From a virus: a stretch of 39,543 nt of DNA. This document shows, piece by piece, positions 1 through 39,543 of this stretch; the first letter of the stretch is position 1; every line of letters starts with the position of its first letter. The position numbers and the translations under genes are program-made. Under the pieces are notes generated by a model. That model searched no databases and was not told the DNA's origin. It saw nothing but the letters and a program-made list of their open reading frames with translations. The stretch is from IMG/VR virus record IMGVR_UViG_3300029951_000064, one strand, 5' to 3'.

Positions 1-121
1 AAGCCATATGCCTCCCGAATAAGTCGTTCCGGTGCCGGTCCATGGCTGGTAAAGCTCTGAGTCATCACCCGAGCCGGAGGCTGAACGATTGACAGCAACT
101 AGCGTCGCAGTGGTGTTCCCG
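1..121. repeat. Terminal direct repeat (circular closure or assembly overlap); identical to 39423..39543
   Basis: Read directly: bases 1-121 (aagccatatgcctcccgaat...gtggtgttcccg) recur exactly at 39423-39543. Confidence 0.95.
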
Positions 122-612
122 TCGGGCGCGACCCCTGCGTTGGCGGTCACAACAGGCGCAACGCCAGTCCCAACCGAGAAAGTCGACCATGGCGAAGTGC
201 TGAGACTGAGCGATTGCAGCAAAAGATTGGTTGCCGCGTTCTCGCGCAGCAAGCCGAGGTCGGTGATGCGCAGCGTGTTCGCGGCGAAATAGGAGACCGT
301 GTTTTCGGCGGTCTGCGCGGTGTCGTTGGCCTGGTTGCGTGTGACCGACAGGCAGTTGGTAGGAGCCGCGCAGCCGCTATAGGACGATCCGGCGAAATTG
401 AGGGTCACCGATGGCGTCGGCCCAAAGGTCCCCGCCGAGCCAAAGCGGCGCATCATGGGACAGCCAAGCGCCCCAGGGATCATGTCGCATTGGGTTACGC
501 GGCCGGCGCCTGGAACCATCGGCGCGACCGTTGTTCCCGTCGACGGGGCCGCGGCCAGAAAAAGCGATAGCGCGACGGCGAGCGCCAGCGCGTAAAGCTG
601 ATGAAGCCTCAT
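1..612 (-). CDS. 5' part (204 codons) of a wrap-around 766-aa gene. N-terminal signal-peptide-like segment followed by the start of a LamG/jellyroll-like fibre domain. Continues at 39422 and ends at 37734.
   Basis: ATG at 612..610 directly after an in-frame TAA. I checked the frame triplet by triplet down to base 1 and found no stop. The codon boundary at base 1 is in phase with the 37734..39359 ORF across the 121-bp repeat. N-terminus MRLHQLYALALAVALSLFLAAAPSTG. ATGA overlap with the upstream gene stop (611..609). Confidence 0.6.
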   Translation of the reverse strand, partial: MRLHQLYALALAVALSLFLAAAPSTGTTVAPMVPGAGRVTQCDMIPGALGCPMMRRFGSAGTFGPTPSVTLNFAGSSYSGCAAPTNCLSVTRNQANDTAQTAENTVSYFAANTLRITDLGLLRENAATNLLLQSLSLSTSPWSTFSVGTGVAPVVTANAGVAPDGNTTATLVAVNRSASGSGDDSELYQPWTGTGTTYSGGIWL

Positions 613-980
613 TTAAAATATTCCACGTTGATGGTCGCGGTCGCTGCCTGTTGGAAAAAACGAGCGGCAATCAAGACGTTATAACCGGACAGCGAAACAC
701 AATTGCCAGCCGCGACAGGCTCCCCGACGGTCGCCGAGACGGTTTGCGTGAGGTCGGTCACGTAATTGACCGCCTGGGCCACTACGCAAACCGTGGCATA
801 GGTCGCGCCCGCGGGAACCGTGAGAGCGGTCGGCGAGGCAACACCCAAATTATATTGCGCGCCCGCCACAGGATTGAAAGGGAAAGGCGCGGGGTAAACG
901 GTCTGCTGGGCGAGCGCCGAGCCGCAAAACAGGGTCGCGGCGACGGCGCCAACCGCTAATTTTCTCATTTGGGCGAGCAT
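609..980 (-). CDS. Small secreted protein (123 aa), function unknown
   Basis: ORF track. N-terminus MLAQMRKLAVGAVAATLFCGSALA-QQ looks like a Sec signal peptide with an AxA site. GGAGGA lies upstream of the ATG. Stop overlaps the next gene start (ATGA). Confidence 0.6.
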   Translation of the reverse strand: MLAQMRKLAVGAVAATLFCGSALAQQTVYPAPFPFNPVAGAQYNLGVASPTALTVPAGATYATVCVVAQAVNYVTDLTQTVSATVGEPVAAGNCVSLSGYNVLIAARFFQQAATATINVEYFK

Positions 981-983
981 GGC

Positions 984-1052
984 CTATCCTCCAAAAATCA
1001 TTCGAAACGCGAAGCCCGCGCCGACGCCGAGCTTTCCGAAAGCCGAGCCCAT
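984..1052 (-). CDS. Possible 22-aa glycine-zipper micropeptide (MGSAFGKLGVGAGFAFRMIFGG)
   Basis: Not in the track because it is under 60 aa. ATG 1052..1050 shares one base with the upstream TGA (TGATG). It fills the gap between two genes. Its GGAGGA codons double as the RBS of the next gene. Confidence 0.25.
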   Translation of the reverse strand: MGSAFGKLGVGAGFAFRMIFGG

Positions 1053-1810
1053 CACTTTTTGTCCTCGCCGGGATATTTCTCGCGATCGACCGCCGAATCA
1101 AAGCGCATGCGCTGCAACTGCTCTTTGCGCATGGCGTCCGCCGCCGCCTGATCGCCCGCAACCTGCATTTGCTGCAAATCCTGCTGATGCTCTTGCGCGC
1201 TCAGGGCAGAGTCCTGCGCGCGCGCCTGGGCGTCAACGTGATGGTCCGCCATGCTGGCCTGCGCGTCGATTTGCGCCTCTTGCACGCCAATTCGAGCCTT
1301 GGCGATTTCCGCCTGGGTTTTGACCTGCAACCCCTTGAGCTTGATAAGTTCGTCGGGGTTCGGCTGCGGCGGCGGCTTGGGCTGCCCGGCCTTCTCGACC
1401 ATCTGCGCAACCATCGTCTCAATTGTGGTTTCGAGCGTGCGGCCGACCTTGTAAGCGCGCAGGGCGAACAGCATCAGGTCGCCGGCAAGCTGCGCCATTT
1501 GTGGCTGCGCGGCGACGATCGGCCCCCACGTCTCGACCATTTTGGTGATGACCTCGACAAGCTCAGTGCGGTCCTTTTTCTCCTGCGCTTCGTCCCCGGC
1601 GATCGTCGAGTCGGCCTCGATGTCCATGCGGAAGCGGCGCGCGGGATTGTCGCGCAGCAAGCGCATGACCGCATCAATGGTGATCGGCGCCCCAGGCGGC
1701 AGGGCTTGCGGGGACGGCTGCGCGGCAGGGGGCGGCGTTTGTGGCAAGCCGCCAGCGGGCGGGGAGGGGGGAGCGCCGCCAGCGGGCTGCGGAGAGGGTT
1801 GAGGGAGCAT
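1052..1810 (-). CDS. Pro-rich N-terminus plus long coiled-coil protein (252 aa). Portal-associated, scaffold-like, or a detached portal C-terminal segment.
   Basis: ORF track (1052..1813). ATG at 1810 shares one base with the portal TGA. N-terminus PQPSPQPAGGAPPSPPAGG, C-terminal half Q/A-rich heptad-like. Confidence 0.6.
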   Translation of the reverse strand: MLPQPSPQPAGGAPPSPPAGGLPQTPPPAAQPSPQALPPGAPITIDAVMRLLRDNPARRFRMDIEADSTIAGDEAQEKKDRTELVEVITKMVETWGPIVAAQPQMAQLAGDLMLFALRAYKVGRTLETTIETMVAQMVEKAGQPKPPPQPNPDELIKLKGLQVKTQAEIAKARIGVQEAQIDAQASMADHHVDAQARAQDSALSAQEHQQDLQQMQVAGDQAAADAMRKEQLQRMRFDSAVDREKYPGEDKK

Positions 1811-3540
1811 CACGGTATAGCTCCCATGGCCGGTGCACCGGGCGCGGGCGCCGGCGTGGCGCGAGACCCTCCCGATGCCATCGCGCCAGGCTGCGGGGCC
1901 TGAGCTTGCCGAATGGCCGCGGCGACCTGCGCCTGATGCTGCGCGGCCTGTTGCATGGCCGCCTGTTGCCGGGCCTGCGCCTCTTGCTGCTGAAGCTGCA
2001 TCAAAACCTCCTGATCGGTCGGCAATGGCATATTCGCCATGGCCATTATCGTCTCAGGCTGGAAATGGTTGCAAATGATCTCGCCGACGATCCTCGTGAA
2101 ATCGCGGCAGAAACGCCCCAATTCCTCTTGGCGGGTTCGCATCCGCGCGGAGCCATGCTGAGATTTGAGGACTTGCGCGCCTTTGGTTTCGTCGGGGTCC
2201 GTGGCGCCGCGCACAATGTCAGAGATCCCGGTGATCTGGTAAACGTCCTCAATCAGCGCCGCGCGGAGCTTAACGCATCCCTCCAAAACCTGAGAGACCA
2301 TTTCGACGGGCCAGAAAATGACGGGCGGCACACTGCCATTGGCCGCGAACTGCGCCCAATTCCGAACGGCGATCATGCGATTTTCCACGCCCGCCGTCGC
2401 CGCGCGCTCAAGCTCGGGGAAGCCGGCGCCGTCCGGTCCCCCGGCATAGAAGCCGACCACCTTGAGCGAATCTTGAAGAGCGGCGATGCGGGCGGTCAAT
2501 TGCTGAATTTCTTCGGCCTGATCCTGATAATAGGTGTAGTCAGGGCGCGGAACGAGGGAATCGCTCGTCAAAGTCCCATAGGCCGGGCGAGGACAGGGAT
2601 AGAAGCCCGTCAGCTTGAGATAGGGCTCGTCCTCCTCAAGGGCATGGGCGAAGCCTTCGGCAACCCATAGGACGCGATTCTCGGACCTGTCCCAAACTTC
2701 CCAAATCTTGGCCTTTTTCTCAAGATTATCGTCTTTGCCGGCGTCGTCGGTCGACTTGTTGTTATAGGCCAAGCGCTCGGAAATCTTAACGCCGGCCTCG
2801 TCCGTCATCGGCTCGCCGTTTTCATCAACGAAGCGTTTTTCGACCTCTTTTTTCGTGAGATAGGCGGCGAACGCAACCCAAGTGACCTCGTCCCATGTGC
2901 GCGCGTCGTCGTGCGCGAAATCCTTCAAATGGACGAAAACAATCTTGACGCGCTCGAATTTCAGAACCTCTTGGGAGGCCGGAGTGTCATTGTCCTCGGA
3001 CGTGTCGCCCTCATGGGACCCGGCCTCTTCCTCGGCGTCACGTTCTATTTCTTCGCCGGCTGCTTGGACGCCCTCGGCGTCGGCCGTGTCGAGGTCATCG
3101 CCCTCGCCGCCGCCCATGTCGACCGTCTCCATGACCGGCTCATAAACGGCACGGGCTTGACCGCGAGCGTAGAGTAAGAAATCGTCTCGAACGAGTTTGA
3201 ACTTTCCGTCATAGTTTTCGGAATCAAACGTAAAATCAATGCAGCGCTCCACCATCATGCCAGCTTGGCGAGCCGTGTCGTCCTTATCGGTGAAGCGGCG
3301 CGTAACATCGGCCTTTGGCGGCTTGGCATAGGTTGCCGCCTTCATGACCTCTATGTTTGCCCAAAAGATTTGATACTTGCGGACCTTGACCGTTTGACTG
3401 TCGTCATACCGGTAAACGTCTCTGATTTTCCTGCAAGCCTCGAACCATTTCTCCATTCCGCGCGCTTTTTGCGACTTGCGAATGAGGGTGATCCAAGGAT
3501 TTTCGTCGCCTTGGACTCCCGAAGTATCGTTGTCAGCCAT
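1810..3540 (-). CDS. Portal protein (576 aa)
   Basis: Size, position downstream of the large terminase, and an acidic insert plus Q/A-rich C-terminal tail typical of podovirus portals. Family-level recognition only. Confidence 0.8.
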   Translation of the reverse strand: MADNDTSGVQGDENPWITLIRKSQKARGMEKWFEACRKIRDVYRYDDSQTVKVRKYQIFWANIEVMKAATYAKPPKADVTRRFTDKDDTARQAGMMVERCIDFTFDSENYDGKFKLVRDDFLLYARGQARAVYEPVMETVDMGGGEGDDLDTADAEGVQAAGEEIERDAEEEAGSHEGDTSEDNDTPASQEVLKFERVKIVFVHLKDFAHDDARTWDEVTWVAFAAYLTKKEVEKRFVDENGEPMTDEAGVKISERLAYNNKSTDDAGKDDNLEKKAKIWEVWDRSENRVLWVAEGFAHALEEDEPYLKLTGFYPCPRPAYGTLTSDSLVPRPDYTYYQDQAEEIQQLTARIAALQDSLKVVGFYAGGPDGAGFPELERAATAGVENRMIAVRNWAQFAANGSVPPVIFWPVEMVSQVLEGCVKLRAALIEDVYQITGISDIVRGATDPDETKGAQVLKSQHGSARMRTRQEELGRFCRDFTRIVGEIICNHFQPETIMAMANMPLPTDQEVLMQLQQQEAQARQQAAMQQAAQHQAQVAAAIRQAQAPQPGAMASGGSRATPAPAPGAPAMGAIP

Positions 3541-24935: not shown

Positions 24936-26314
24936 TAGATGCTCCCGCCAGCCATGGGCGCGGCTGGATTCCATTCTTGCCCCGGTTGCCAAGCGGGCGC
25001 CGCGGCGGGGGCCTGCATGGCGAGCGCTTTGGCAATCGCCTGCGACCTCGTAAGCGATTGCGGAACCTGCGAGGGATTGGCGCGCAGGGCGTCCGCGACG
25101 GGCGAGCGCCCGCGAACCGCCGCGTCAACGCCAGAGAGAGCGCCGGTAGAGAGGGTATTGTCGAGGCTTTTCGCGCCATACCCCACGGCAGGAGCCATTA
25201 GGCCCGCCGCAGCGCCGGGAACGCCTGCGGTCTCATAGCCGGCGATTGCCCCCATGACGCCGGTATTCGCCGCGTGCATGCCGCCGCCGCCCCCCAGGAG
25301 GTTGCCGATGGCGCGCGCGGCGTTCGTCGTCGGCGTCCCATGGACGACATCCTTCAATCCCTGAATTTCGTCGTCACTAAATCCGGCCGTGAGCTTATCA
25401 TTTCCGAGCAGGGCGGCGACGCGCTGGCGCGTTGCATTTCCAATATTTGCGCCTGAGTTAGAAGCCGCAGCGGCGAGATCGGCTTTATTTGCGATGCCGT
25501 TAATGCGATCCGACCGGAAGGCGGCGGCTTGATTGGCTCGGGCGTCTTGGAGGGTCTGCGCGGCGGTAGTGGCGTCGCCAGATAAAACAGCGCCGTCAGG
25601 AGGCTTTGCCACAAATCCGTCAATGGCCTTTTGCGCGACCCCAGCCGCATGACTGTCTTGGCCTTGGCCTGGGGAATAATCGTGGGCGATCTGCCCGAGC
25701 ATTTGGCGGGCGGATTCGAGCGACGTAAGAGGGACGGAAGGGTTTGAGCCATCGGGGGGAACAGCCTGTAATTTATTCAGGATCGCATGCGTTTGGGGCG
25801 CAATTTCCTGAATGGGGAAACTCGGATCAGCTTGAACCTGGGCCGCCAAATCCGCAACATGAGACGGAGCGTAATCCACTCCCATCGCGGGAAGGGACTT
25901 ATAGCCGGCGCTCGCCGCGCTTTGAAGCGCTTCCGTCGAGGGCGGCACAAAGGGGGCGTCTTTGAACGCTGGCGCGGCCAAGATGCCTTCGCCCGCGCCA
26001 ATGCCGGGCGCGGCGGACAGCCCGAGCGCGGCGGCGACCCCCGTAGAGGCCGCAACGCCGGCCGGGCTTGTCGGGTCAACGCGGCCCTCCGCAACGTCCT
26101 GAGTGAGCTTCGTCCCTTTGTAAAACGGCGCCAGAATTCCAGCGCTCGGATCAAAACTGACGTTTCCGCTTGCATCGCGCGAAAACGGCAGGATTGAGCC
26201 GGAATAGGGCTGCTCGGCGGCAACATCGGTCGGCGACCATGCGGGCGCAGCGGTCCCCGGCTGCGCGGGAGCCGTCGGCGTTGCAGGCGCGTCATTGTCC
26301 CAGGCGTCGGCCAT
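24935..26314 (-). CDS. Internal virion / ejection protein (459 aa)
   Basis: Position between the transglycosylase-bearing protein and the tail fibre. Ala/Gly-rich. ATG 26314 shares one base with the upstream TAA. Confidence 0.5.
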   Translation of the reverse strand: MADAWDNDAPATPTAPAQPGTAAPAWSPTDVAAEQPYSGSILPFSRDASGNVSFDPSAGILAPFYKGTKLTQDVAEGRVDPTSPAGVAASTGVAAALGLSAAPGIGAGEGILAAPAFKDAPFVPPSTEALQSAASAGYKSLPAMGVDYAPSHVADLAAQVQADPSFPIQEIAPQTHAILNKLQAVPPDGSNPSVPLTSLESARQMLGQIAHDYSPGQGQDSHAAGVAQKAIDGFVAKPPDGAVLSGDATTAAQTLQDARANQAAAFRSDRINGIANKADLAAAASNSGANIGNATRQRVAALLGNDKLTAGFSDDEIQGLKDVVHGTPTTNAARAIGNLLGGGGGMHAANTGVMGAIAGYETAGVPGAAAGLMAPAVGYGAKSLDNTLSTGALSGVDAAVRGRSPVADALRANPSQVPQSLTRSQAIAKALAMQAPAAAPAWQPGQEWNPAAPMAGGSI

Positions 26315-28962
26315 TATTTCTTCGTCCAAACCGAGCCGTCGGGCCGCTTATATTGCGCGCCAGCCGGGAGCGCAGCATAGGCGGGGTCCGACGGGCTCGA
26401 AATAGATGGAATGGCGCCGGGTGCGGGCGCGGCCGAAGCAGCCCCAGGCGCCGGAGCCGCAAACCGCTGAATGACCTTCTGCCCTTCCGGTCCTATGACC
26501 GGATAGGATGAATTCGCGCCGAAAGCGGTCTGCCACTGGCGCTGCAATTCGTCGGTTTTGCCTTGCAGGAGGGTCGAGACTTTCGAGAAAACGGCTTTCT
26601 GCTCGTCCGGGGTCATGTTCGGAGACAGGTTCGAGACCATCGCCTTGATTTCGCCTTCGGCCGGCGTGCCGCCTTTGTAAATCTTGGCTATTTCGTCGGA
26701 AAGGGCGTTTTTGTTGAACTGATAGGCCTGCAACGCGGGGTTGCCGACGGCCAATTCGCGGCCCTCGTTTTTCACGGCGTTCACGATCGGATAGCCGGTG
26801 TTGCCGAGCGCGTCCGCGCTGTCGGCGAGGCCGTTCAAATGGTGGAGGGCCGTGTTTGCCGACAGGATCATGCCGCCCGCCGAGGTCGGCGAAGTCTTGT
26901 CGCCGAATTGCTTGACCATATCGGCGCGCGCGGAAGCGACCGACGAATTGAATTCCGGCGCCGCTTTGAACACGGCGTCCCGAATGGCGACATCGATGGG
27001 CTTCGTCGCGGCGTTCGCCTCGGGAAGCGGCGCTTGGCCATTGATGATCGCGCGCGCCGATCGCGCGACGACAGAATTCGCACCGCCCGATTGCTCAAGG
27101 CCGTTGAGATAGGTTTGGCCTTGCGGCGTCATACCATTAGCAGCCGCCATATCGACCGAGCCGGCGACGGTCTGCGGAGGCGCCGCATTGGTCTGGCCCG
27201 TCGGATTGGGCGGAAGGGGGGCGACGGAAGCGCCCGGCGCCGGCGCGCCAGCGGCGGGAGGGCCGCCTGGCAAGACAGGCACGGCGGGAGCGCTCGACGC
27301 CGCGGGAGTGCCCGGAACGCCGGGCGCAGGCGCAAGCGCCGGGCCCCCAATCGCCGACCCTGCGCCGACCGGCGTCACGGTCTGAGTTTTCGGGCTGATC
27401 CAACCGTATTGTTCGTTGCCGGCGGCGTCTTTGCCGATAACGCCGAAAGTCGGGGGCGTCGGCAGTTGCGCCGAAAGCTGGGCCTCGGCGAGTTGAGCGA
27501 GCGCCGGGGGCGTATAGGGGTCTGCGAGGAGCGCCAACAATTGCTGACGATTGCCAGGGGTTTGCGGGGCCGAAGCAGCCGGGGGCGCGGACACGGCGCC
27601 GCCCGGCTGCGGCCCAGCCGGCGCGGAAGCCCCCGCGACTACGCCAGCGGGAGGTTGCGCCTGGGGCTGCGCGCCCATGGCGGATGCAAGTTGAGCAATG
27701 GCCTGGGGAGAAGGCGGCGCAGGCTGCGCGCCCCCCGCGCCCGGCGCCGCTTGAGCCGACGCCATCATTGCGCCGGGGGCCGGCGTCACGCCAGCGGGCG
27801 GAAGCGCGTTTGGCGGAATCGGCGTTCCCTTCGGCGCCGTGATGACTTGGCCAGTCGTGGGATCCTTCCAAGCGACTGCGCCAGCGTCGGCGTAAGCGCC
27901 ACCTTGCGGCCCGGGCGCGGGCGCGCTCTGCGTGGGTTGGCCGGTAGAAGGGTCGATCGCATAGCCTTGAGCATTCGTGGCAACCGGCGTCCCATCGGCG
28001 GCATGCGCCATGGGACCGCCAGCACCAGACGGCGCGGGCTGGCCAGGCGCGGGCGCTGCGGCGTTGATCGCGGCGGCGGCCGGCGACAATTGCGACGTGA
28101 ATTTGTCGGCATAGGCTTGGCCTGTCGTGCCGAGTTGATCGGCCGCGGTCGCGCCGCCCTCCGCAAGAGGCTTGCCAGTTAGCCAAATGCTCGCCGCGTC
28201 CTGGGGCGAATTGGTCTGCAAAAGCGAGCCGAATTGATGATTGAAAACCGCGTCCTGCAATTCCCGGCTGGCCAAGAATTCTTCTCGCGAAACAGGTCGA
28301 CCGACTGCCGCCTGCGACCATTGCGGGAGATTTCCAGGCATGACGCCATATTTGCCGAGAGCCCGCTGGCCGGCATAGGGACCGCTCGCCACAACGGGGC
28401 CGAGCGCGGAATAATTGCCGCCGCTCTCGTTCCCGGCAATCGCGGCGCGAAACGGCGCCATCGGGTCTGAGCCGCCAGCGCCGGCCGGCGCGAGCGCATT
28501 GGCGACCGCCGAAGCTCCCCCTCCCGAGCCGGGAGAGGCCCCAGGCTGCGCGCCACCCAGCGCTGCGGCGATTGCAGGCGCGCCGCTCAATCCGGCTGCG
28601 GCGTCGCCCTGCGCGTCAACCGCAGCGTCGGAGTTTTGGAGCGCGGGCGTCGAGCGGCCCGGCGTCGCCGGAATGGCCTGCGCCCCCGGATCAAGGCCAA
28701 AAGCTGCGCCTTCCAACGCGTCATTGTTCGCGCGCCCCAAATTCAATTGTTGGTTCGCTTGCCGATTAATCAGCGCGGCACTAAGCGCCTGCGCGATTCG
28801 GGCGGCGCCCTGCCAAGGGCTCGCGATCGGCGACGTATCCGAACCGGATTTCGAAAGAGCGTCCGCAATGGCCTGCTGGCGCGCGATCTGTGCCGGCATG
28901 AGCAACGTGGAATTGGGATTGCTGGGGTCGCTGGCGGGAAGATTGAAATCGAGCAGACTCAT
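26314..28962 (-). CDS. Internal virion protein with a lytic transglycosylase/lysozyme-like domain (882 aa)
   Basis: AIAGNESGGNYSALG...ALGKYGVMPGNLPQW is an SLT-type catalytic Glu motif. Long Ala/Pro/Gly-rich linker regions. Confidence 0.7.
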   Translation of the reverse strand: MSLLDFNLPASDPSNPNSTLLMPAQIARQQAIADALSKSGSDTSPIASPWQGAARIAQALSAALINRQANQQLNLGRANNDALEGAAFGLDPGAQAIPATPGRSTPALQNSDAAVDAQGDAAAGLSGAPAIAAALGGAQPGASPGSGGGASAVANALAPAGAGGSDPMAPFRAAIAGNESGGNYSALGPVVASGPYAGQRALGKYGVMPGNLPQWSQAAVGRPVSREEFLASRELQDAVFNHQFGSLLQTNSPQDAASIWLTGKPLAEGGATAADQLGTTGQAYADKFTSQLSPAAAAINAAAPAPGQPAPSGAGGPMAHAADGTPVATNAQGYAIDPSTGQPTQSAPAPGPQGGAYADAGAVAWKDPTTGQVITAPKGTPIPPNALPPAGVTPAPGAMMASAQAAPGAGGAQPAPPSPQAIAQLASAMGAQPQAQPPAGVVAGASAPAGPQPGGAVSAPPAASAPQTPGNRQQLLALLADPYTPPALAQLAEAQLSAQLPTPPTFGVIGKDAAGNEQYGWISPKTQTVTPVGAGSAIGGPALAPAPGVPGTPAASSAPAVPVLPGGPPAAGAPAPGASVAPLPPNPTGQTNAAPPQTVAGSVDMAAANGMTPQGQTYLNGLEQSGGANSVVARSARAIINGQAPLPEANAATKPIDVAIRDAVFKAAPEFNSSVASARADMVKQFGDKTSPTSAGGMILSANTALHHLNGLADSADALGNTGYPIVNAVKNEGRELAVGNPALQAYQFNKNALSDEIAKIYKGGTPAEGEIKAMVSNLSPNMTPDEQKAVFSKVSTLLQGKTDELQRQWQTAFGANSSYPVIGPEGQKVIQRFAAPAPGAASAAPAPGAIPSISSPSDPAYAALPAGAQYKRPDGSVWTKK

Positions 28963-29726
28963 GCGAGCGCTCCCAACAATCCAATGCCGGAACTCCCGAG
29001 GCCGAATAGCCCCCCCATTGCCGCGTTGCTTTGCGCGACCTGTTGTTGATAATTCTGCTCGACGATGCCCGCGACATTCGTCGGCGCGACGCCGGTTTGG
29101 GAGGTCGGCGCCAGCGTGCCAACGCCGGGCTGAGAAACTTGGCTTCCCGTTTCGAGCGAAGAAAGGGCGTTGAGAGGTTCGTTATATTCTGACGTAAGCG
29201 CGGATTGAGCCTGCGATGCGTCCTGCCCGAAAGCGGACGCATAGGCGTTGTCCTTTAGAAGTCCCTCGTTCGAAATTGCCGTGGTATAGCCGGCGCTCCC
29301 CGGCGCGAGACCTTGGTCGTAGGCGGTCTGCTGGGTCTGCGCATCGTTGCGCGCCCATTGGGGATCCATCGTGAATTCGTTTTCCTTGTCGAGTTGCCCT
29401 TGCAACGCCGAATAGGAAAGGTCGAGAGGATTCGAGAGAGTCGAGGAGGCCGTGTTTTCGAGCTGACCGGCGAGATTTGCGCTTCCCGTCGCATTCGCGA
29501 TCGTTTTATCGGAAAGAGCTTGTTCGTCTGGCGCAAGCGTCGTCGTCGCTGTTTCTTCCGGCGCGCCGCTCGAACTCGTCCCGGTCTGATTGTAGGTAAT
29601 GTTGCCGTAAGGCGTGATCTGCGAAACGTCGTTAAGCTGGCTCTGATAATCGGCCGTCTGCTCGTTCGATTGCGTTTGCGCCTGGGCGGTCTGATACGGG
29701 TCGGGAGGGCTCGGCTGGCTGATCAT
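28959..29726 (-). CDS. Internal virion / ejection protein (255 aa), Q/S/T-rich
   Basis: ORF track. ATGA-coupled to the downstream gene. C-terminal glycine-zipper GGLFGLGSSGIGLLGALA. Confidence 0.5.
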   Translation of the reverse strand: MISQPSPPDPYQTAQAQTQSNEQTADYQSQLNDVSQITPYGNITYNQTGTSSSGAPEETATTTLAPDEQALSDKTIANATGSANLAGQLENTASSTLSNPLDLSYSALQGQLDKENEFTMDPQWARNDAQTQQTAYDQGLAPGSAGYTTAISNEGLLKDNAYASAFGQDASQAQSALTSEYNEPLNALSSLETGSQVSQPGVGTLAPTSQTGVAPTNVAGIVEQNYQQQVAQSNAAMGGLFGLGSSGIGLLGALA

Positions 29727-30129
29727 TCGAAAGCCTCAAGATTTTCTGCCTTGAGGCGAGGAGGCCTAGAATGATGCCGTCCTCTCGGGGAAAGCGATCT
29801 TTCATGACGCCCTCGGGCTCAAAGCCGAGTTTCAGAAGGCTTCTGATCGCCCGATCATTAGAAATTGGGGTTACGCACGTCACCCGCGCAACGGCGAGCT
29901 TGCCAAACACATAGTTCGCGATATTCCGCATAGCCCACATCGGCCATGGCTTCAACACTGTGCACGATAAATCGACGTTGATCCGATCGAAGTTGTTGAA
30001 AACCAGCGCGCCGGCCAATTCTTCGCCGTCGAGGACGACAAGGCCGACGAATGGCTCAGAAAAAACGAGGCCAAGAGGGACGCCGATCGCGCGGGCCGCG
30101 CGCGCATTGTCTTGCGAAACGGAGAACAT
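29632..30129 (-). CDS. GNAT-family N-acetyltransferase (165 aa)
   Basis: FGKLAVARVTCVTPISNDRAIRSLLKLGFEPEGVMKDRF matches the RimJ/RimL-like GNAT core (..v.a.v...N..s.rl.eklGF..eG). AAGGA RBS. The 3' 95 nt overlap the next gene. Confidence 0.65.
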   Translation of the reverse strand: MFSVSQDNARAARAIGVPLGLVFSEPFVGLVVLDGEELAGALVFNNFDRINVDLSCTVLKPWPMWAMRNIANYVFGKLAVARVTCVTPISNDRAIRSLLKLGFEPEGVMKDRFPREDGIILGLLASRQKILRLSNDQPAEPSRPVSDRPGANAIERADGRLSEPA

Positions 30130-35193: not shown

Positions 35194-35233
35194 GAAGAAA
35201 AAGGGAATTTAGAGGGGCCTCCCTAGACCCCTC
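35194..35233 (-). terminator. Possible attenuator or terminator after the major capsid gene
   Basis: Stem GAGGGG-N10-CCCCTC (35212-35233), then a TTTTT run 6 nt downstream on the minus strand. Confidence 0.3.
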
Positions 35234-35247
35234 CATCGCCCGCTAAT

Positions 35248-36249
35248 TTACTGCCACAAAACGCCATTTAGGCTGAGGTTGTTGGCAGTCATATTACCCG
35301 CCCACGCCATTATGCGCACAACCGCGTCCTGATTGACGTTGGTCCGATCGCCGCCGATGACCTTGAAGTTTCGCTTCGAGGACGGCCGATAAAGGACGGT
35401 TTTGGTGTTGAGGAAATAGGCCGTGTTCGTCGGAATCTGGCCGTTCTTGCCGCCGTCGAGGACGACGTCGACCTCTTTACCGGCGCCGTAATATTTCAGC
35501 GACGTGAAGCCCGCGCCCGCCATCGCCTTCTCTGACGTGATGCGCTGGATAAGCTGCAACGAGGTCAAATAGGCGATATAGATGTTGTTGTCGGCGACGA
35601 TCAGGTCAACGCCATCCGAATTGCGCTTTAACCCGATGGTCGTCGAGTTGAAATAGCTCTGGACGTTGCTCGACGTGATGACGCCGCGCGAATCGGTATT
35701 GGCGTTGACGCTGACATTGCGCCACCACGGATTCGCGCCGCGATCGATGCCGCCGACCAGTCCCGAGGTCGGAGCCTTCGAAACGAGGAGGGCCAGGCCG
35801 CCGATCTGCTTGCCAGAAAATCCGGTGCCGTCGGAATAGACGCCCGCCGACATTTCATTGTCAAAGGTCGCTTCCGCGGTATCGGTGCGCTCGACGATCA
35901 AGTCAAGCATCTGCTCCTCGCCGTCGTTCTGAATATCTTCCAGGCCCGACAGCACAACGGCGACCGAACACTGCTTCCATGGGAAGCGGGCGGCGGTCAT
36001 CGTGTCGTTCAATGAAATGTTGATAAATTCCGTGCCCGAATACCACATGAACGACTGGTTTTGGGCATAGCGGAGGCCTTGATAAATCTCTCGGCCGCCC
36101 GAGATTGGCTTGCTGTTGCCGCCCTTGCGAATGAACGCCAGGAGGGCGTTGTTGTTCGTAACGTTGTCCTCCAACGTCTTGGAGCGGTTTTCGAGGGTCG
36201 TGGTGACAACGTCACCCCAATCTACTGAGACGACTTGCGGCGAGGCCAT
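35248..36249 (-). CDS. Major capsid protein (333 aa), HK97 fold, epsilon15/BPP-1-like family
   Basis: N-terminal pattern ENRSKTLEDNVTNNNALLAFIRKGG...GGREI, size, and position after the scaffold gene. Confidence 0.8.
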   Translation of the reverse strand: MASPQVVSVDWGDVVTTTLENRSKTLEDNVTNNNALLAFIRKGGNSKPISGGREIYQGLRYAQNQSFMWYSGTEFINISLNDTMTAARFPWKQCSVAVVLSGLEDIQNDGEEQMLDLIVERTDTAEATFDNEMSAGVYSDGTGFSGKQIGGLALLVSKAPTSGLVGGIDRGANPWWRNVSVNANTDSRGVITSSNVQSYFNSTTIGLKRNSDGVDLIVADNNIYIAYLTSLQLIQRITSEKAMAGAGFTSLKYYGAGKEVDVVLDGGKNGQIPTNTAYFLNTKTVLYRPSSKRNFKVIGGDRTNVNQDAVVRIMAWAGNMTANNLSLNGVLWQ

Positions 36250-36259
36250 GGCCTAATCC

Positions 36260-37393
36260 CTAAATTCTGGCCCCTTTTTGGGCCGCCAAGGCCTCCCGCG
36301 CGATTTCCATCGCCGATTGGCCCGCTTTTGGAGCGCTCGCGGCAGGAATGCCCCGCGCCGGCGCCCCGGTGATAGCTTTCGCCTGTCGCCGCGCCTGATC
36401 GGCGGCCTGGGCGTTGACGATACGCCTCGCGGGAGCGGCGCCCATGTGGGGCCTGATCGTCGCGTCGGCGTAACAAGCCATGTCGTAAGCGGCTTGCAGC
36501 CTTTCCTTGAGGGGCAGCGCCGCATCGATAACTCCCGACGACAGAATGCCGGGAATTTTTGCCTCGACGTTCGCATAGAACCTGTTTGATGGGTCCGCAG
36601 CGAAAGCCTCGACGACCGAAAGTCGCTCTTTTTGTCCCGCCTCCTGCGCAATTTCTTGCCGGACTTGGGCGATGATTCTTTGGGGATCGACCGTCTGATG
36701 GGTCGGGGCAGGCTGGGGATTTGGTCGAGGAGCGCCCGGCTGCTGATTGCCGGAAAGGCGCTGCGACCACGCAACTAGGAACTGTCTCGGGTCTTTGATT
36801 CCGACGTTCGCTAGGACTCTTGTCACGCCAGCAAAAACGTCACGGCGCAACTCTTGCTCGATTCCTACATATTGTTCCAAGGCTTTATCAAGCGTCGTGC
36901 CGCCCTTCAAGGCCATTTCGTGGTATTTTTCCACAGGCTTGAAGATTGAGAGCTTGGCAAAGCCCTGCTCAATCTCGCGTTCGCGCTTGACAATGTCGGC
37001 CTTGATATGCGGGGGGAGTTTTTCGAAATCGACTTTCGACTGCGGCGACCAGCCGCCTGGGGGTCTCTCGACGACAGGTGCGTTGGGATCAGCCGCGGCG
37101 ACCGGGGGCGTTCCTGGGGCGACAGGCGGAACGGGAGCGCCCGTTCGATCCGGCGCAGGCTTGTCGGTCCTCGGCACGAACTTGCCGTCTGGCGCCCGCG
37201 CGCGGTCGCGCTCGGCGCCGCGCTCGCCCGAATGACCTTCGTCCCCCTCAGCGCGGTCCTTCTGATCGTTGAGCGCCGCGCGCGCGATTTCGAGGGTCGA
37301 TTCGGGAGCGGCGGGGGCTGCTGTTTCGCCGGAAGCGCCATCACCAGGCGCGAGCGTGTCGGCGATTTCGTTTTCTAGTCCGGGGCCTGCCAT
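36260..37393 (-). CDS. Scaffolding protein (377 aa)
   Basis: Immediately upstream of the capsid gene. Ala/Pro/charged-rich and helical. Confidence 0.55.
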   Translation of the reverse strand: MAGPGLENEIADTLAPGDGASGETAAPAAPESTLEIARAALNDQKDRAEGDEGHSGERGAERDRARAPDGKFVPRTDKPAPDRTGAPVPPVAPGTPPVAAADPNAPVVERPPGGWSPQSKVDFEKLPPHIKADIVKREREIEQGFAKLSIFKPVEKYHEMALKGGTTLDKALEQYVGIEQELRRDVFAGVTRVLANVGIKDPRQFLVAWSQRLSGNQQPGAPRPNPQPAPTHQTVDPQRIIAQVRQEIAQEAGQKERLSVVEAFAADPSNRFYANVEAKIPGILSSGVIDAALPLKERLQAAYDMACYADATIRPHMGAAPARRIVNAQAADQARRQAKAITGAPARGIPAASAPKAGQSAMEIAREALAAQKGARI

Positions 37394-37737
37394 GCTGTTG
37401 AACTTTCCGATTCGAGGGGCTTCGGTTTGTAGCCAGCGCGGACCTTGCGATAGGCCTCGCCGATTTCGTTTTTCGTGATACGGCGGGAATTGTCGAGGGT
37501 CCGCGTCGGCGCTTGATCGCCGACCTCAACCACTCCCGCCGCCTTATAGCCGCGCCGGAGCGCGGATTTCGAGGAATAGACTCTTCCGTCGGCCATGCTG
37601 CGCAAGTCGCCGATCGAATCCATATTGAGCATCGGCGCGGGCAGATGCGAGCGGGCCGGCGCCGGCCGCCGATCAAGAGGGCCGCCCTTCTCGACAAGCG
37701 CGCCGTTGCGGAAAACGAAAGTGCCTCGATTGCTCAT
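37375..37737 (-). CDS. Hypothetical protein (120 aa)
   Basis: ORF track. ATGA-coupled to the upstream gene. Confidence 0.5.
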   Translation of the reverse strand: MSNRGTFVFRNGALVEKGGPLDRRPAPARSHLPAPMLNMDSIGDLRSMADGRVYSSKSALRRGYKAAGVVEVGDQAPTRTLDNSRRITKNEIGEAYRKVRAGYKPKPLESESSTAWQAPD

Positions 37738-39543
37738 GGGATCGACGATACGTTGCCGGTTACCGGGAAATTCCCCGAATTCGTCAGGCTATCATAAAGG
37801 AAATAGAATTCGGTCGGCGTCTCGTGCATGGTCGGGTCGCCATTGTAGGCGGCCGATGTGCCCAACTGAATTGCCTTCTGACGCTTGGTAAAGCTGATGT
37901 TGGTCCCTGGAGGCCCTGCGCAATTCCAAGATGTGGCATAGCCGATGTTCTGCCCGAAGAACGTCGTGTCAAAATCGTCGGTATAGAGCATTTCGCAATA
38001 GCCCTCGGCGTCCTCGATTACCCAAGGGTCTTCAAGGCGCGTGGTGTTTGGAAAGTCCCAATCGGTCGACACGGTATTCAGCGCTACGCCGCCGAAAGTC
38101 CACGTCGTCGGGCAAGTATTTCCGACCGGCAAAGGCGATGTGAAATAATCGATGGTTAGCCCGTTTGGCCTGACGGCAACGAACATGATCAATTGATAGG
38201 GCGTCTTGATGATATTCGGGAGCGCATAGCCGATCGGCGTAAGGGGATTCAGACCAGACTTGGCGTATGTCCCATTTACCGCAGGGGCAGACGCCAGCCC
38301 TATGGCTTCGTCGCCCCCGGTTCCCGTCGTGCCGGTCATCCCGCTGTAATACATGCAGGTGGTCGAACCAGCGGCTACATCCGATGGATGCAGAAGATAT
38401 GACGAGTCCCAAGTGCCGGTGCCGGCCGAGAGGATGACGCCATTGTTGGTCCAAGGTGAAGTTAAAACGGCGGTCGCCGACAGCAGGTCAATATTTTGCC
38501 AGCCTTGATTGGGGCTCGTATTGGCGACGTTTCGCGCGCCGCCCGGCCCATAAATCGTGCCCGCGATAACCGTATCCGGCGAGGAATAATAGGGCGACGA
38601 TTGCGCGCCGACGTTTGCCGCAATCGTGTTGAGCGGCGCGATTGGGTTGCCGCTATAGGCCACCGCTGCGCTAAAGTCGCGGAACGGGGGCGTCTGAGAC
38701 GACGACGCGGCCGTTAGGCCCTGAAAGGTAGCGCTTGCCAGCTTCGTATTATAGCCGGTGATCGACGTGAAAAATCCCACGGCGCCGTTCGTGCCGTCTT
38801 GGAATGAGCCGAGATTTGCCGCCGTTACAGCGGAAACGGAGCCTCCCGCGACCGGCGTTCCGTTGTTGATGGCGATAGCGCTCGAACCAGCCCCCCATTC
38901 GACGCCAGCGGCCAGATAGGGGTTCGATGAAAGCCATGTCCCTATGGAATTTACTGAGCTTCCTCCCCATCCGCTTGTCGCCGCTCCTCCCGAGGTATAG
39001 CCGAGGGCGGCGACATCGGTCGCGCCGACGCCGAGGAGGGTTTGGGCGACCGACTCGCCCATATTGTCGGTGACAAAAATCAGCGTCCCGGCCGCGCTCT
39101 CGATCAGGCTGAGAAGGGCGCCGCTGGCGGGGATGATATCGGCCGGTCGCGTGACGGTCGAGGTCGTCGTGGGGATAAGCGACGAACAGTGAGAGCCTAG
39201 TTCTTCCTGACCTCCCCAGGCGAGAAACGTCACGGCTCCCGTCGGGCCGCCCGCCGCCATATAGCCGATATTGAATTGCGACGTGGCCGACATCGTCGGG
39301 CCGACGATGCACACATGCTGCCAGCCCGAAGTGAGGGCAATAGTGGTCACCCCTTGCAACGCCGTGCCATTGTAGGCGGCGATCTGAATATTCTTTCCTA
39401 TGTCCCCTGCGGAGCCCGCCTCAAGCCATATGCCTCCCGAATAAGTCGTTCCGGTGCCGGTCCATGGCTGGTAAAGCTCTGAGTCATCACCCGAGCCGGA
39501 GGCTGAACGATTGACAGCAACTAGCGTCGCAGTGGTGTTCCCG
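37734..39543 (-). CDS. 3' part of the wrap-around 766-aa gene: rest of the LamG/jellyroll-like domain plus a C-terminal beta-propeller glycoside-hydrolase-like domain
   Basis: The frame is open from the window end to the stop at 37734. The track ORF starts at an internal TTG (39359), but 21 upstream codons (EAGSAGDIGKNIQIAAYNGTA) are open and in phase with 1..612. Motifs: TANAGVAPDGNTTATL, WGGQEELGSHCSSLIPTTTSTVTRPAD (LamG-type), and WDSSYLLHPS...CMYYSG...AIGLASAP, EDPWVIEDAEGYCEMLY, NIGYATSW (GH43/32-like blades). Confidence 0.6.
   Translation of the reverse strand, partial: GNTTATLVAVNRSASGSGDDSELYQPWTGTGTTYSGGIWLEAGSAGDIGKNIQIAAYNGTALQGVTTIALTSGWQHVCIVGPTMSATSQFNIGYMAAGGPTGAVTFLAWGGQEELGSHCSSLIPTTTSTVTRPADIIPASGALLSLIESAAGTLIFVTDNMGESVAQTLLGVGATDVAALGYTSGGAATSGWGGSSVNSIGTWLSSNPYLAAGVEWGAGSSAIAINNGTPVAGGSVSAVTAANLGSFQDGTNGAVGFFTSITGYNTKLASATFQGLTAASSSQTPPFRDFSAAVAYSGNPIAPLNTIAANVGAQSSPYYSSPDTVIAGTIYGPGGARNVANTSPNQGWQNIDLLSATAVLTSPWTNNGVILSAGTGTWDSSYLLHPSDVAAGSTTCMYYSGMTGTTGTGGDEAIGLASAPAVNGTYAKSGLNPLTPIGYALPNIIKTPYQLIMFVAVRPNGLTIDYFTSPLPVGNTCPTTWTFGGVALNTVSTDWDFPNTTRLEDPWVIEDAEGYCEMLYTDDFDTTFFGQNIGYATSWNCAGPPGTNISFTKRQKAIQLGTSAAYNGDPTMHETPTEFYFLYDSLTNSGNFPVTGNVSSIP
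39423..39543. repeat. Terminal direct repeat, identical to 1..121
   Basis: Read directly. Confidence 0.95.

What the first reader, a model, noticed from the sequence alone, without database searches (positions are those of the whole stretch)
1..1052. Cassette of signal-peptide proteins inserted between portal and scaffold (wraps to 37734-39543)
In podoviruses with this capsid and terminase type I expect portal to be followed closely by scaffold and capsid genes. Here three tightly coupled ORFs intervene. The first is a 22-aa glycine-zipper peptide. The second is a 123-aa protein with a clear Sec-type signal peptide (AVAATLFCGSALA-QQ). The third is a 766-aa protein whose N-terminus (MRLHQLYALALAVALSLFLAAAPSTG) also looks like a signal peptide or anchor; it continues into a LamG/jellyroll fibre-type domain and a C-terminal five-bladed-propeller-like glycosidase region. 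Exported proteins are unexpected for virion components assembled in the cytoplasm. Possible explanations are an exported or soluble polysaccharide depolymerase/lectin moron, a membrane-tethered superinfection-exclusion or receptor-masking system, or a head/tail fibre whose hydrophobic N-terminus has another role.
Basis: partly seen in the sequence, partly recalled or inferred. Interest (0 to 1): 0.65.

Follow-up and report, generated by a model that had tools for sequence, protein, structure and literature searches.

The report
Exported spike-fibre cassette in phage head operon
A phage carries, between its portal and capsid-assembly genes, a swappable two-gene module (a small beta-sandwich protein plus a sugar-binding, probably sugar-cutting fibre related to the head spikes of gene transfer agents), and both proteins start with secretion-type signals, which virus-particle parts normally lack.

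Summary
The window is a circular contig whose ends overlap by 121 nt. With the overlap removed, a 766-aa ORF (612..1 + 39422..37734, minus strand) follows a 123-aa ORF and a 22/23-aa ORF. All are translationally coupled, between the split portal gene and a conserved 120-aa gene, scaffold and capsid.

Phages with 65-76% identical capsid proteins lack the 123-aa and 766-aa genes. That position is a hypervariable slot: empty in some relatives, holding other fibre-like cargo in others.

p766 is a modular fibre. It has the NCBIfam "GTA head spike fiber" domain (E 1e-21), and weaker evidence points to a C-terminal GH43/GH117-like propeller. Its closest distant homologue, in a Methylosinus prophage, directly follows an Rcc01079-type spike-base gene, so p123+p766 resembles a base+fibre pair. 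p123 itself shows no detectable homology to that base.

p123 belongs to a large unannotated family (about 3,000 clusters). About 75% of the top members have signal-peptide-like N-termini by a crude rule, and a conserved cysteine pair tracks with them.

My best reading (about 0.45) is an exported glycan-targeting module, not a cytoplasmically assembled virion part. The main rival (about 0.25) is a virion spike in which p766's alternating-leucine N-terminus docks into a p123 oligomer. This is a new variant of a known kind.

The parts
984..1055 (-). Small ORF (23 aa from GTG 1055, 22 aa from ATG 1052; MGSAFGKLGVGAGFAFRMIFGG). Its last codons contain the GGAGGA ribosome-binding site of p123.
   Evidence: Alignment with L003 shows an in-frame 57-nt deletion relative to a 40-aa hydrophobic peptide ORF. 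Function doubtful.
609..980 (-). p123: 123-aa small beta-sandwich protein. Signal-peptide-like aa 1-24 (nt 980..909; MLAQMRKLAVGAVAATLFCGSALA|QQ), Pro-rich arm, then a beta core with conserved Cys64/Cys93.
   Evidence: AF2 pLDDT 87 overall, about 97 for aa 35-123. Foldseek.
1..612 (-). p766, N-terminal part (aa 1-204): hydrophobic alternating-Leu N-terminus (aa 1-22, nt 612..547), Cys-rich linker/neck (aa 27-122) and the start of the spike-fibre jellyroll domain (from aa 123, nt 246).
37734..39422 (-). p766, C-terminal part (aa 205-766 plus stop): rest of the NF048003 domain (to aa 298, nt 39141), a second beta domain (aa 299-443) and a propeller-like glycosidase-type domain (aa 444-766, nt 38705..37737).
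   Evidence: Contiguous and 100% identical in L007.
39423..39543 (.). Assembly overlap: exact copy of window 1..121. It must be removed to close the circle.
1052..1813 (-). Upstream flank: portal C-terminal fragment gene (253 aa, GTG start overlapping the stop of the 576-aa N-terminal fragment 1810..3540).
   Evidence: phrog_12082 positions 504-707 versus 17-504.
37375..37737 (-). Downstream flank: conserved 120-aa gene (phrog_21669). In relatives it directly follows the portal. It is followed by scaffold-like 36260..37393 and major capsid protein 35248..36249.

Best explanation
p123 + p766 is an accessory two-component, glycan-targeting "small beta-sandwich partner + fibre" module. It is of the kind known from the RcGTA head spike (Rcc01079 base + Rcc01080 fibre). 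It sits in a hypervariable cargo slot between the portal and head-assembly genes of an Mx8/BUCT555/ppBjS10J-1-like phage, probably of a Hyphomicrobiales host.

p766 is built as follows: a hydrophobic N-terminus, a Cys-rich linker, a CBM-like spike-fibre jellyroll, a second beta domain, and a GH43/GH117-like five-bladed propeller.

In this lineage both partners carry Sec-type N-terminal signals and lineage-specific cysteines. From that I infer four steps:
1. The pair is co-translated with the head genes late in infection.
2. It is exported to the periplasm.
3. It folds there with disulfides.
4. It acts on envelope polysaccharide. It may bind or cut nascent EPS, capsule or O-antigen (a receptor-destroying or matrix-clearing role), and it may be released at lysis as a free lectin or depolymerase. 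It is not built onto capsids in the cytoplasm.

Shown: gene structure, the insertion, domain identities, and family-level signal/cysteine statistics. Inferred: export, complex formation, substrate and biological role.
For: - Identity of p766: NF048003 GTA_spike_fiber, 78 bits against a cut-off of 36; PHROG tail protein.
- C-terminal domain: all 12 PDB profile hits are propeller GH/phosphorylases, with GH117 best at E 0.002. Foldseek on the low-confidence model independently returns phage tail fibres, CBM4/16/61 and GH117/GH43.
- Pairing with a small upstream beta protein recurs: Methylosinus prophage, L078 and L075, L022/L032.
- Export of p123: canonical signal with ALA|QQ. Divergent homologues each have their own signal. 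The signal is present in 112 of 149 family representatives. The conserved Cys pair occurs in 83/112 signal-bearing against 6/37 signal-less members, Fisher p 6e-10.
- Export of p766: it has 10 Cys against 0-2 in most other virion proteins of the same genome (p 0.002). None of these Cys is shared with the signal-less homologue P0003.
- In other phage contigs, signal-bearing p123-like genes are followed by fibre or tailspike-like proteins with canonical cleavable signals: L006, L027, L028 and L075.
- A periplasmic depolymerase can reach capsule in transit (PMC6003464).
- Accessory status: relatives with 65-76% identical capsid lack the pair.
Against: - No signal-peptide predictor was available. 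The calls rest on rules and family statistics that do not correct for relatedness.
- p766 lacks a clean, conserved SPase I site: AAA|P in the window, PIA|TT in P0001.
- p766's N-terminus aligns with the base-docking segment of signal-less homologues. It has five bulky/small alternations, rare among bona fide signals of the p123 family (3/113).
- The module is seamlessly embedded in the head operon and is made of virion-type domains.
- Glycosidase activity is unproven. The matches are weak, the model has pLDDT 39, and catalytic residues were not assigned.
Confidence: 0.45

Rival explanations
1. Cytoplasmically assembled virion spike (head or neck), a GhsA/GhsB analogue. A p123 oligomer binds the capsid. 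The alternating L-A-L-A-V-A-L-S-L N-terminus of a single p766 plugs into the oligomer's hydrophobic pockets, as Rcc01080 does in the Rcc01079 pentamer. The signal-like N-termini would then be attachment elements, not export signals.
For: - NF048003 domain. The homologue is paired with a true spike base.
- The docking mechanism is documented in PMC7296036.
- p766 aa 9-17 has exactly five bulky/small alternations, and the segment is positionally equivalent to the N-termini of P0003 and P0007.
- p123 is a roughly 90-aa beta sandwich like the jellyroll base.
- The genes lie next to the head genes and are translationally coupled.
- The same slot in relatives holds signal-less small beta proteins and fibre-like proteins.
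Against: - p123 has a textbook cleavable signal, conserved in character across divergent homologues. A Cys pair co-varies with the signal.
- No sequence, profile or specific structural link between p123 and Rcc01079: NF048002 no hit, HMM no hit, hhalign probability 0.7%, no 6TB9 among the 50 listed Foldseek hits.
- A hydrophobic, positively charged N-terminus would be captured by Sec/SRP.
Confidence: 0.25
2. Exported module that is loaded onto virions after export. p123 and p766 mature in the periplasm with disulfides, then dock onto particles once the holin opens the inner membrane.
For: It reconciles the virion-type domains and head-operon position with the signal and cysteine evidence.
Against: - No precedent known to me.
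- No direct evidence here.
- If p766's N-terminus is cleaved or membrane-embedded, it cannot also be the docking motif.
Confidence: 0.08
3. Superinfection-exclusion or receptor-masking system. Periplasmic p123 and membrane-anchored p766 block entry of related phages or mask the receptor, analogous in logic to T5 Llp, Cor, P1 Sim or T4 Spackle.
For: - Signal-bearing small protein next to a receptor-binding-type protein.
- Hypervariable locus.
- Some p123-like signal proteins occur alone, between terminase and portal (L013/L019/L020).
Against: - No own promoter for expression in a lysogen.
- No integrase found among the genes scanned.
- No lipobox.
- A 766-aa CBM + propeller protein is an odd blocker.
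Confidence: 0.1
4. Ordinary tail fibre plus assembly chaperone, misplaced in the genome. p766 would be the main receptor-binding protein and p123 its chaperone.
For: - PHROG tail protein hit.
- Foldseek hits to phage tail fibres.
- p123-like genes lie beside tail-fibre genes in prophages.
Against: - Close relatives lack both genes yet keep the whole tail module, so the pair is accessory.
- Signal peptide and disulfide on p123.
Confidence: 0.07

Closest known systems
RcGTA head spike: base Rcc01079 (GhsA) + fibre Rcc01080 (GhsB); PDB 6TB9/6TBA; PMC7296036, PMC10218006
   Same: - p766 carries the family-defining spike-fibre domain (NF048003).
- A small beta-sandwich gene lies immediately upstream.
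- The fibre's N-terminus is hydrophobic, with five alternating bulky residues.
- Both are lectin-like and glycan-targeting.
   Different: - p123 is not detectably homologous to Rcc01079.
- Both proteins have Sec-type N-termini and extra cysteines.
- p766 is more than twice as long, with an added beta domain and a propeller glycosidase-like domain.
- The genes sit inside the head operon of a phage with a different capsid lineage.
Methylosinus sp. LW4 prophage pair (spike base P0163 + 733-aa fibre P0003)
   Same: P0003 is 34% identical to p766 over 90% of its length, including the C-terminal propeller-like domain. The base gene lies directly upstream.
   Different: - It lies at the end of a siphovirus-type tail module.
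- It has a true Rcc01079-family base.
- It has no signal-like N-termini.
- Its cysteines are at different positions.
Phage tailspike or fibre depolymerases and free or detachable forms (e.g. RcGTA TspA, bioRxiv 10.64898/2026.07.19.739414)
   Same: A modular receptor-binding protein with a carbohydrate-binding and a putative glycosidase domain. It could act detached from the particle.
   Different: Known examples are made in the cytoplasm without signal peptides. Their catalytic domains are usually beta-helices, not GH43/117-like propellers.
Signal-bearing phage accessory proteins encoded beside receptor-binding genes (T5 Llp, phi80/T1 Cor, lambda Lom/Bor); comparison from my own knowledge
   Same: An exported small protein encoded in the late or structural region, linked to receptor specificity.
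   Different: Those are lipoproteins or outer-membrane proteins with their own expression in lysogens or early in infection. p123 has no lipobox and no own promoter. No homology.

Membership tests
GTA/phage head spike fibre (NF048003 GTA_spike_fiber) | Domain HMM match above NCBI's curated cut-off | tested here: met
   p766 aa 123-298: E 1.2e-21, 78.1 bits against a cut-off of 36. The same holds for P0001, P0003 and P0004.
GTA/phage head spike fibre (NF048003 GTA_spike_fiber) | N-terminal alternating (iso)leucine peptide that docks into the base pentamer (Rcc01080 residues 2-10, IALGLGLGL) | tested here: inconclusive
   p766 has L9-A-L-A-V-A-L-S-L17, five bulky/small alternations; 3/113 signal peptides of the p123 family reach that run length. 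The same segment also looks like a Sec signal or anchor. No complex modelling was possible.
GTA/phage head spike fibre (NF048003 GTA_spike_fiber) | Attached to capsid pentons of the particle | not testable with these tools
   Needs virion proteomics or cryo-EM.
Spike base protein, RCAP_Rcc01079 family (NF048002) | Sequence or profile similarity to Rcc01079 | tested here: not met
   - NCBIfam: no hit for p123 even at E 10.
- Family HMM against Rcc01079: no alignment.
- hhalign A3 against A5: probability 0.7%.
- No such gene anywhere in the window.
Spike base protein, RCAP_Rcc01079 family (NF048002) | Small jellyroll fold, encoded directly upstream of the fibre gene | tested here: inconclusive
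   AF2 model of p123 is a confident beta sandwich. Foldseek gives only generic cupin/jellyroll hits at E about 0.03 and no 6TB9 among the 50 listed. Gene position matches.
Sec (SPase I) secretory protein: p123 | Positively charged n-region, hydrophobic h-region, small residues at -3/-1 | tested here: met
   By inspection MLAQMRK / LAVGAVAATLFCGS / ALA|QQ. The same layout with different sequences appears in P0011, P0012 and most of 149 representatives. A Cys pair co-varies with it. SignalP was not available.
Sec secretory or signal-anchored protein: p766 | Cleavable signal or transmembrane anchor at the N-terminus | tested here: inconclusive
   R2/H4 plus 17 hydrophobic residues, then P-S-T-G. 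The possible site STG|TT is not conserved in P0001. Cys enrichment supports export.
GH43/GH117/GH130/GH32-type five-bladed beta-propeller glycosidase (p766 aa 444-766) | Fold and catalytic acidic residues | tested here: inconclusive
   - All 12 PDB profile hits belong to this fold; best is GH117 at E 0.002.
- Foldseek on a pLDDT-39 model agrees.
- Pfam: nothing for p766; sub-threshold BNR_2 for P0003.
- Acidic residues invariant in the p766/P0001/P0003 alignment (A4) include D543, D669, E681, E738 and E742. Their catalytic role is untested.
Moron (autonomously expressed cargo gene in a late operon) | Own promoter and terminator | tested here: not met
   Start/stop overlaps on both sides. Promoter-like and terminator-like sites are no more frequent than in shuffles.
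Llp/Cor-type exclusion lipoprotein | Lipobox L-[AS]-[GA]-C | tested here: not met
   The context of the only Cys in the p123 signal is T-L-F-C.

The most novel reading that the evidence does not exclude
Many environmental phages export copies of receptor-binding-type modules (a small disulfide-bonded jellyroll protein plus a fibre or tailspike-like protein) into the periplasm. The p123-like family alone has about 3,000 clusters at 50% identity. The exported modules would either destroy or occupy envelope glycans from within, or mature spike components oxidatively for loading onto virions after the holin opens the membrane. This would be a class of phage late function that has not been described.
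Probability: 0.3. Interest if true: 0.8.

Novelty: new variant of a known kind. Interest (0 to 1): 0.55.

Why it matters
Virion parts of tailed phages are assembled in the cytoplasm. Secretion signals on spike-type proteins inside a head operon therefore point to one of two things. Either phages export glycan-targeting modules, a receptor-destroying or matrix-clearing step comparable in logic to viral neuraminidase, or these hydrophobic N-termini are assembly elements that merely mimic signals.

The work also gives a first handle on a very large unannotated family of small phage proteins (about 3,000 clusters). It identifies a hypervariable cargo slot next to the portal in this phage lineage. 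Both are directly testable with fusions, proteomics and enzyme assays.

Tried and rejected
- Pfam on all cassette and flanking proteins: no hits.
- tblastn of p123 against 50,697 phage genomes: no match. A signal-less family member matched only one metagenomic record, so no cultured phage with virion proteomics is available.
- p766 against PDB by sequence: no hit.
- AF2 of p766 from 8 sequences: pLDDT 39. I used it only as a weak cross-check.
- Homology of p123 to Rcc01079: rejected at sequence and profile level and not seen by Foldseek.
- Domain fusions of long p123-family members: no Pfam domains.
- Similarity of p766 or p123 to the tail proteins of the same genome (shared specificity domain): none.
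- Classical moron: rejected.
- Lipoprotein: rejected.
- Sequencing-error explanation for the wrapped ORF: rejected by L007.
- A KD-based alternation score did not discriminate between sequences, so I replaced it with a bulky/small run count.
- The search for related loci with the 103-sequence alignment failed because the alignment was too divergent. I repeated it with the 5-sequence alignment.
Full report

All genes of the structural module are on the minus strand. The first and last 121 nt of the window are identical, so the window is a circular contig written with an assembly overlap. After the overlap is removed (unique circle 39,422 nt), an ORF starts at 612, runs through position 1 and ends at 37734. 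An independent ENA contig (L007) holds the same 2,301-nt CDS uninterrupted at 100% identity, so the join is not an artefact.

The junctions are tight.
- The 253-aa upstream gene ends in GTGATG, where the small ORF starts.
- The small ORF ends in GGAGGATAG, which supplies the Shine-Dalgarno sequence 6 nt before the p123 ATG.
- The p123 stop and p766 start overlap as ATGA.
- The p766 stop and the next gene's start overlap as ATGA again.

Compared with the 83%-identical relative L003, pN/pS is about 0.17 for both proteins. It is 0.26 for p766 aa 1-23 and 0.30 for the p123 signal region, so the N-termini are translated and constrained.

**2. Surroundings and synteny**

PHROGs identify the following genes:
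- 3540..1810 as the N-terminal 500 positions of a portal family;
- 1813..1052 as the remaining C-terminal 200 positions, so the portal gene is split;
- 37737..37375 as a conserved protein of unknown function (p120);
- 37393..36260 as a virion structural (scaffold-like) protein;
- 36249..35248 as the major capsid protein.

The nearest named phages by capsid protein are Bradyrhizobium phage ppBjS10J-1 (47% identity), Stenotrophomonas phage BUCT555, Myxococcus Mx8/Mx9 and the Brucella Tb group. In ppBjS10J-1 the order is portal, a ~50-aa ORF, a p120 homologue, scaffold, capsid. BUCT555 has the same layout, with a 137-aa ORF in the p120 position that I did not confirm as a homologue. Neither has p123 or p766.

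Among 26 IMG/VR contigs with up to 76% identical capsid proteins (most at 65-76%), the interval between portal and p120 varies widely:
- It is empty in L049-51 and L069.
- It holds a 59-aa basic protein plus a 119-aa beta-rich protein in L045/46.
- It holds 2.2-5.3 kb of other cargo in L052/53, L058 and L064, and about 4 kb lies upstream of p120 in L066 (no portal was detected on that locus).
- That cargo includes a 258-aa protein matching tail-fibre PHROGs (L058), a 500-aa fibre-like protein (L052/53), a 982-aa protein with a signal-like N-terminus (L066) and an 840-aa membrane-anchored protein (L064).

Only L003 and L007 carry p123 + p766. So the pair is an insertion into a hypervariable slot, and it is accessory. 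The tail module downstream is conserved with relatives. The cassette has no compositional anomaly. It has no excess of promoter-like or terminator-like sites. It is therefore expressed as part of the late head operon.

**3. What p766 is**

Pfam finds nothing. PHROGs give a "tail protein" family at E 9e-14. NCBIfam gives NF048003 "GTA_spike_fiber / phage head spike fiber domain" at aa 123-298, with E 1.2e-21 and 78 bits against a cut-off of 36.

The large protein search found only eight relatives. Apart from the close ones, the best is P0003 from Methylosinus sp. LW4, 34% identical over 90% of the length and named "phage head spike fiber domain-containing protein". In that genome it lies at the end of a siphovirus-type tail module. 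It is directly preceded by an 86-aa gene that matches NF048002 "spike base protein, RCAP_Rcc01079 family" (E 8e-24) and the PDB chain "Head spike base Rcc01079" (6TB9; E 6e-19).

In RcGTA, each head spike is a pentamer of the jellyroll base protein plus one fibre. Fibre residues 2-10 (I-A-L-G-L-G-L-G-L) form a five-point star that plugs into the hydrophobic pockets of the five base subunits. The fibre binds the capsule polysaccharide (PMC7296036; PMC10218006).

The alignment of p766 with its relatives gives the following layout:
- hydrophobic N-terminus, aa 1-22;
- a linker with four cysteines that P0003 lacks, within aa 27-122;
- the spike-fibre domain, aa 123-298;
- a second beta domain, aa 299-443;
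- a C-terminal domain shared only with P0001 and P0003, aa 444-766.

A profile of the C-terminal domain hits 12 PDB sequences, and all 12 are propeller-type glycosidases or phosphorylases: GH117 at E 0.002, then GH43, GH130 and GH32.

The AF2 model of p766 is poor (pLDDT 39). Even so, Foldseek returns a coherent set: phage tail-fibre chains, CBM4/16/61 jellyrolls, and the same GH117 and GH43 propellers. I treat the propeller-glycosidase assignment as likely for the fold and open for activity. Acidic residues invariant in the p766/P0001/P0003 alignment include D543, D669, E681, E738 and E742.

**4. What p123 is**

Its N-terminus is a textbook Sec signal: MLAQMRK, a hydrophobic stretch, then ALA|QQ. 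It has no lipobox.

The indexed search found four further homologues. The 52-59% identical ones, P0011 and P0012, have their own unrelated signal sequences (ARA|D and ALG|Q). P0013 has none.

An exhaustive profile search found 2,979 representative clusters at E <= 1e-3, of which 818 are at E <= 1e-10. In nearly all of the 150 listed, the ~90-aa domain lies at the C-terminus of the protein. Of the 149 top members scored, 112 have a signal-like N-terminus by a simple charge/hydrophobicity rule. The two conserved cysteines (C64 and C93 in p123) are both present in 83 of those 112, against 6 of 37 signal-less members (Fisher p 6e-10). The two cysteines are nearly always present or absent together. 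This statistic is not corrected for relatedness. Still, it is the signature expected of a disulfide that forms only in exported members.

With 103 sequences, AF2 gives a confident beta sandwich for aa 35-123 (pLDDT about 97). Foldseek finds only generic cupin/jellyroll matches in the PDB (E about 0.03, with no 6TB9 among the 50 listed hits). It finds many uncharacterised ~100-aa Caudovirales proteins in BFVD (E down to 4e-5, TM 0.5-0.7).

p123 is not detectably related to Rcc01079:
- no NF048002 hit;
- no HMM alignment;
- hhalign probability 0.7%.

No Rcc01079-like gene exists elsewhere in the window.

**5. Contexts of the p123 family**

In 36 IMG/VR loci and 5 bacterial genomes (Roseiarcus fermentans and other Alphaproteobacteria), the gene sits beside fibre genes or inside head modules.
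- Signal-less ~91-102-aa versions precede signal-less fibres. In L022 the downstream protein has spike-fibre domains at E 8e-68.
- Signal-bearing versions are followed by fibre or tailspike-like proteins that themselves begin with canonical cleavable signals. Examples are the L028 559-aa protein (tail-spike PHROG) and the partners in L027 and L006.
- L075 shows the same pattern with a 221-aa signal protein of another family ahead of the signal-like spike-fibre protein P0005.
- Exceptions exist. In L011 and L039 the fibre is signal-like but the small protein is not. In L013/19/20 a signal-bearing p123-like gene sits alone between terminase and portal.
- The general pattern of a small beta protein directly upstream of a spike-fibre-domain protein also holds in L078 (99 aa + 818 aa, no signals).

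**6. The N-terminus of p766**

It is ambiguous.

For a signal or anchor:
- R2/H4, then 17 hydrophobic residues, then P-S-T-G;
- ten cysteines (nine conserved in P0001, none in P0003), against 0-2 in most other virion proteins of this genome (p 0.002);
- partner proteins with clear signals in other phages.

For a docking motif:
- the segment aligns with the N-termini of the signal-less homologues;
- it contains L9-A-L-A-V-A-L-S-L17, five bulky residues alternating with small ones, as in Rcc01080;
- only 3 of 113 signal peptides of the p123 family have such a run;
- the best cleavage site is not conserved in P0001.

The two roles exclude each other. A cleaved or membrane-embedded segment cannot plug into a base.

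**7. Most likely mechanism**

I commit, at about 0.45, to an exported accessory glycan-targeting module. It is made late with the head proteins. p123 is cleaved and disulfide-bonded in the periplasm. p766 is exported or anchored there. The pair then acts on envelope polysaccharide during transit, or is released at lysis. That a periplasmic depolymerase can reach capsule in transit is shown for VexL (PMC6003464). A GTA tailspike that works detached from particles is reported (bioRxiv 10.64898/2026.07.19.739414).

The rivals are:
- a cytoplasmically assembled head or neck spike whose N-termini only mimic signals (0.25);
- superinfection exclusion or receptor masking (0.10);
- export followed by loading onto virions after holin action (0.08);
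- a displaced tail fibre with its chaperone (0.07).

**8. Comparison with known systems, and novelty**

p766 is a member of the head-spike-fibre domain family, because the defining HMM criterion is met. p123 is not a member of the Rcc01079 base family, because that was tested and not met. The pair may still work like base + fibre.

The new elements are:
- Sec-type N-termini and cysteine patterns on both partners;
- the added propeller-type domain;
- the position in a hypervariable slot of a head operon;
- the link to a very large unannotated family.

I rate this a new variant of a known kind, with interest 0.55. The core parts, however, belong to a known kind, and the mechanism is unresolved.

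Noticed in passing
window 1..121 and 39423..39543: Exact 121-nt terminal direct repeat. The window is a circular contig written with an assembly overlap (unique length 39,422 nt).
   Followed up: yes
window 1052..3540 (-), junction at 1810..1813: The portal gene is split into 576-aa and 253-aa ORFs in different frames with a GTGA stop/start overlap. The split is also seen in L007, L045-L051 and ppBjS10J-1 (L003 holds only the C-terminal piece). The gene is fused in BUCT555, L052/53, L058 and L064. It could be two polypeptides or a programmed frameshift. I did not resolve this.
   Followed up: partly
L044-L069, interval between portal and the p120 homologue: Hypervariable cargo slot in this phage lineage. 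It ranges from empty to 5.3 kb between portal and p120; in L066 about 4 kb lies upstream of p120, with no portal detected on that locus. Cargo includes a tail-fibre-like 258-aa protein (L058), a 500-aa fibre-like protein with a Cys-rich 89-aa partner (L052/53), a 982-aa protein with a signal-like N-terminus (L066) and an 840-aa N-terminally anchored protein (L064).
   Followed up: partly
L028 5779..9865: Four consecutive genes with signal-like N-termini lie immediately upstream of a 495-aa ORF that looks terminase-like from its N-terminal sequence alone (not scanned against any library): a 166-aa p123-like protein, two 559-aa proteins (the first matches tail-spike PHROGs) and a 71-aa protein. 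This is another cassette of apparently exported virion-type proteins.
   Followed up: partly
L011 6360..7949: A 529-aa fibre-like protein with a signal-like N-terminus. From reading the sequence (not tested against Pfam), it also has a C-terminal region resembling an S74-type intramolecular chaperone domain, followed by a hydrophobic C-terminal tail.
   Followed up: no
window 35210..35235 (-): Strong terminator-like hairpin (11 pairs followed by a T-rich tail) directly after the major capsid gene. It probably attenuates transcription into the downstream structural genes.
   Followed up: no
window 27001..28000 (within the 882-aa gene 26314..28962, -): Local GC of 71.6% against about 60% genome-wide, inside a large virion protein that has no cysteines and only an unknown-function PHROG match.
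   Followed up: no
window 29632..30129 (-): A GNAT-type acetyltransferase gene is embedded in the tail module. It is conserved at the same place in ppBjS10J-1 and BUCT555.
   Followed up: no
L012, L014, L015, L022-L025, L029-L032, L035-L037: In many IMG/VR contigs the signal-less p123-like gene follows a conserved ~120-aa protein ending in ...LYKLKFLA. The one member scanned (L015) matches phrog_858, 'starvation-inducible transcriptional regulator'. The meaning of this recurrent pairing is unknown.
   Followed up: no
L071 7770..8865: Two tandem p123-like genes in an alphaproteobacterial MAG, at least the second with a signal-like N-terminus, with no obvious phage genes nearby. The family may not be restricted to phages.
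   Followed up: no
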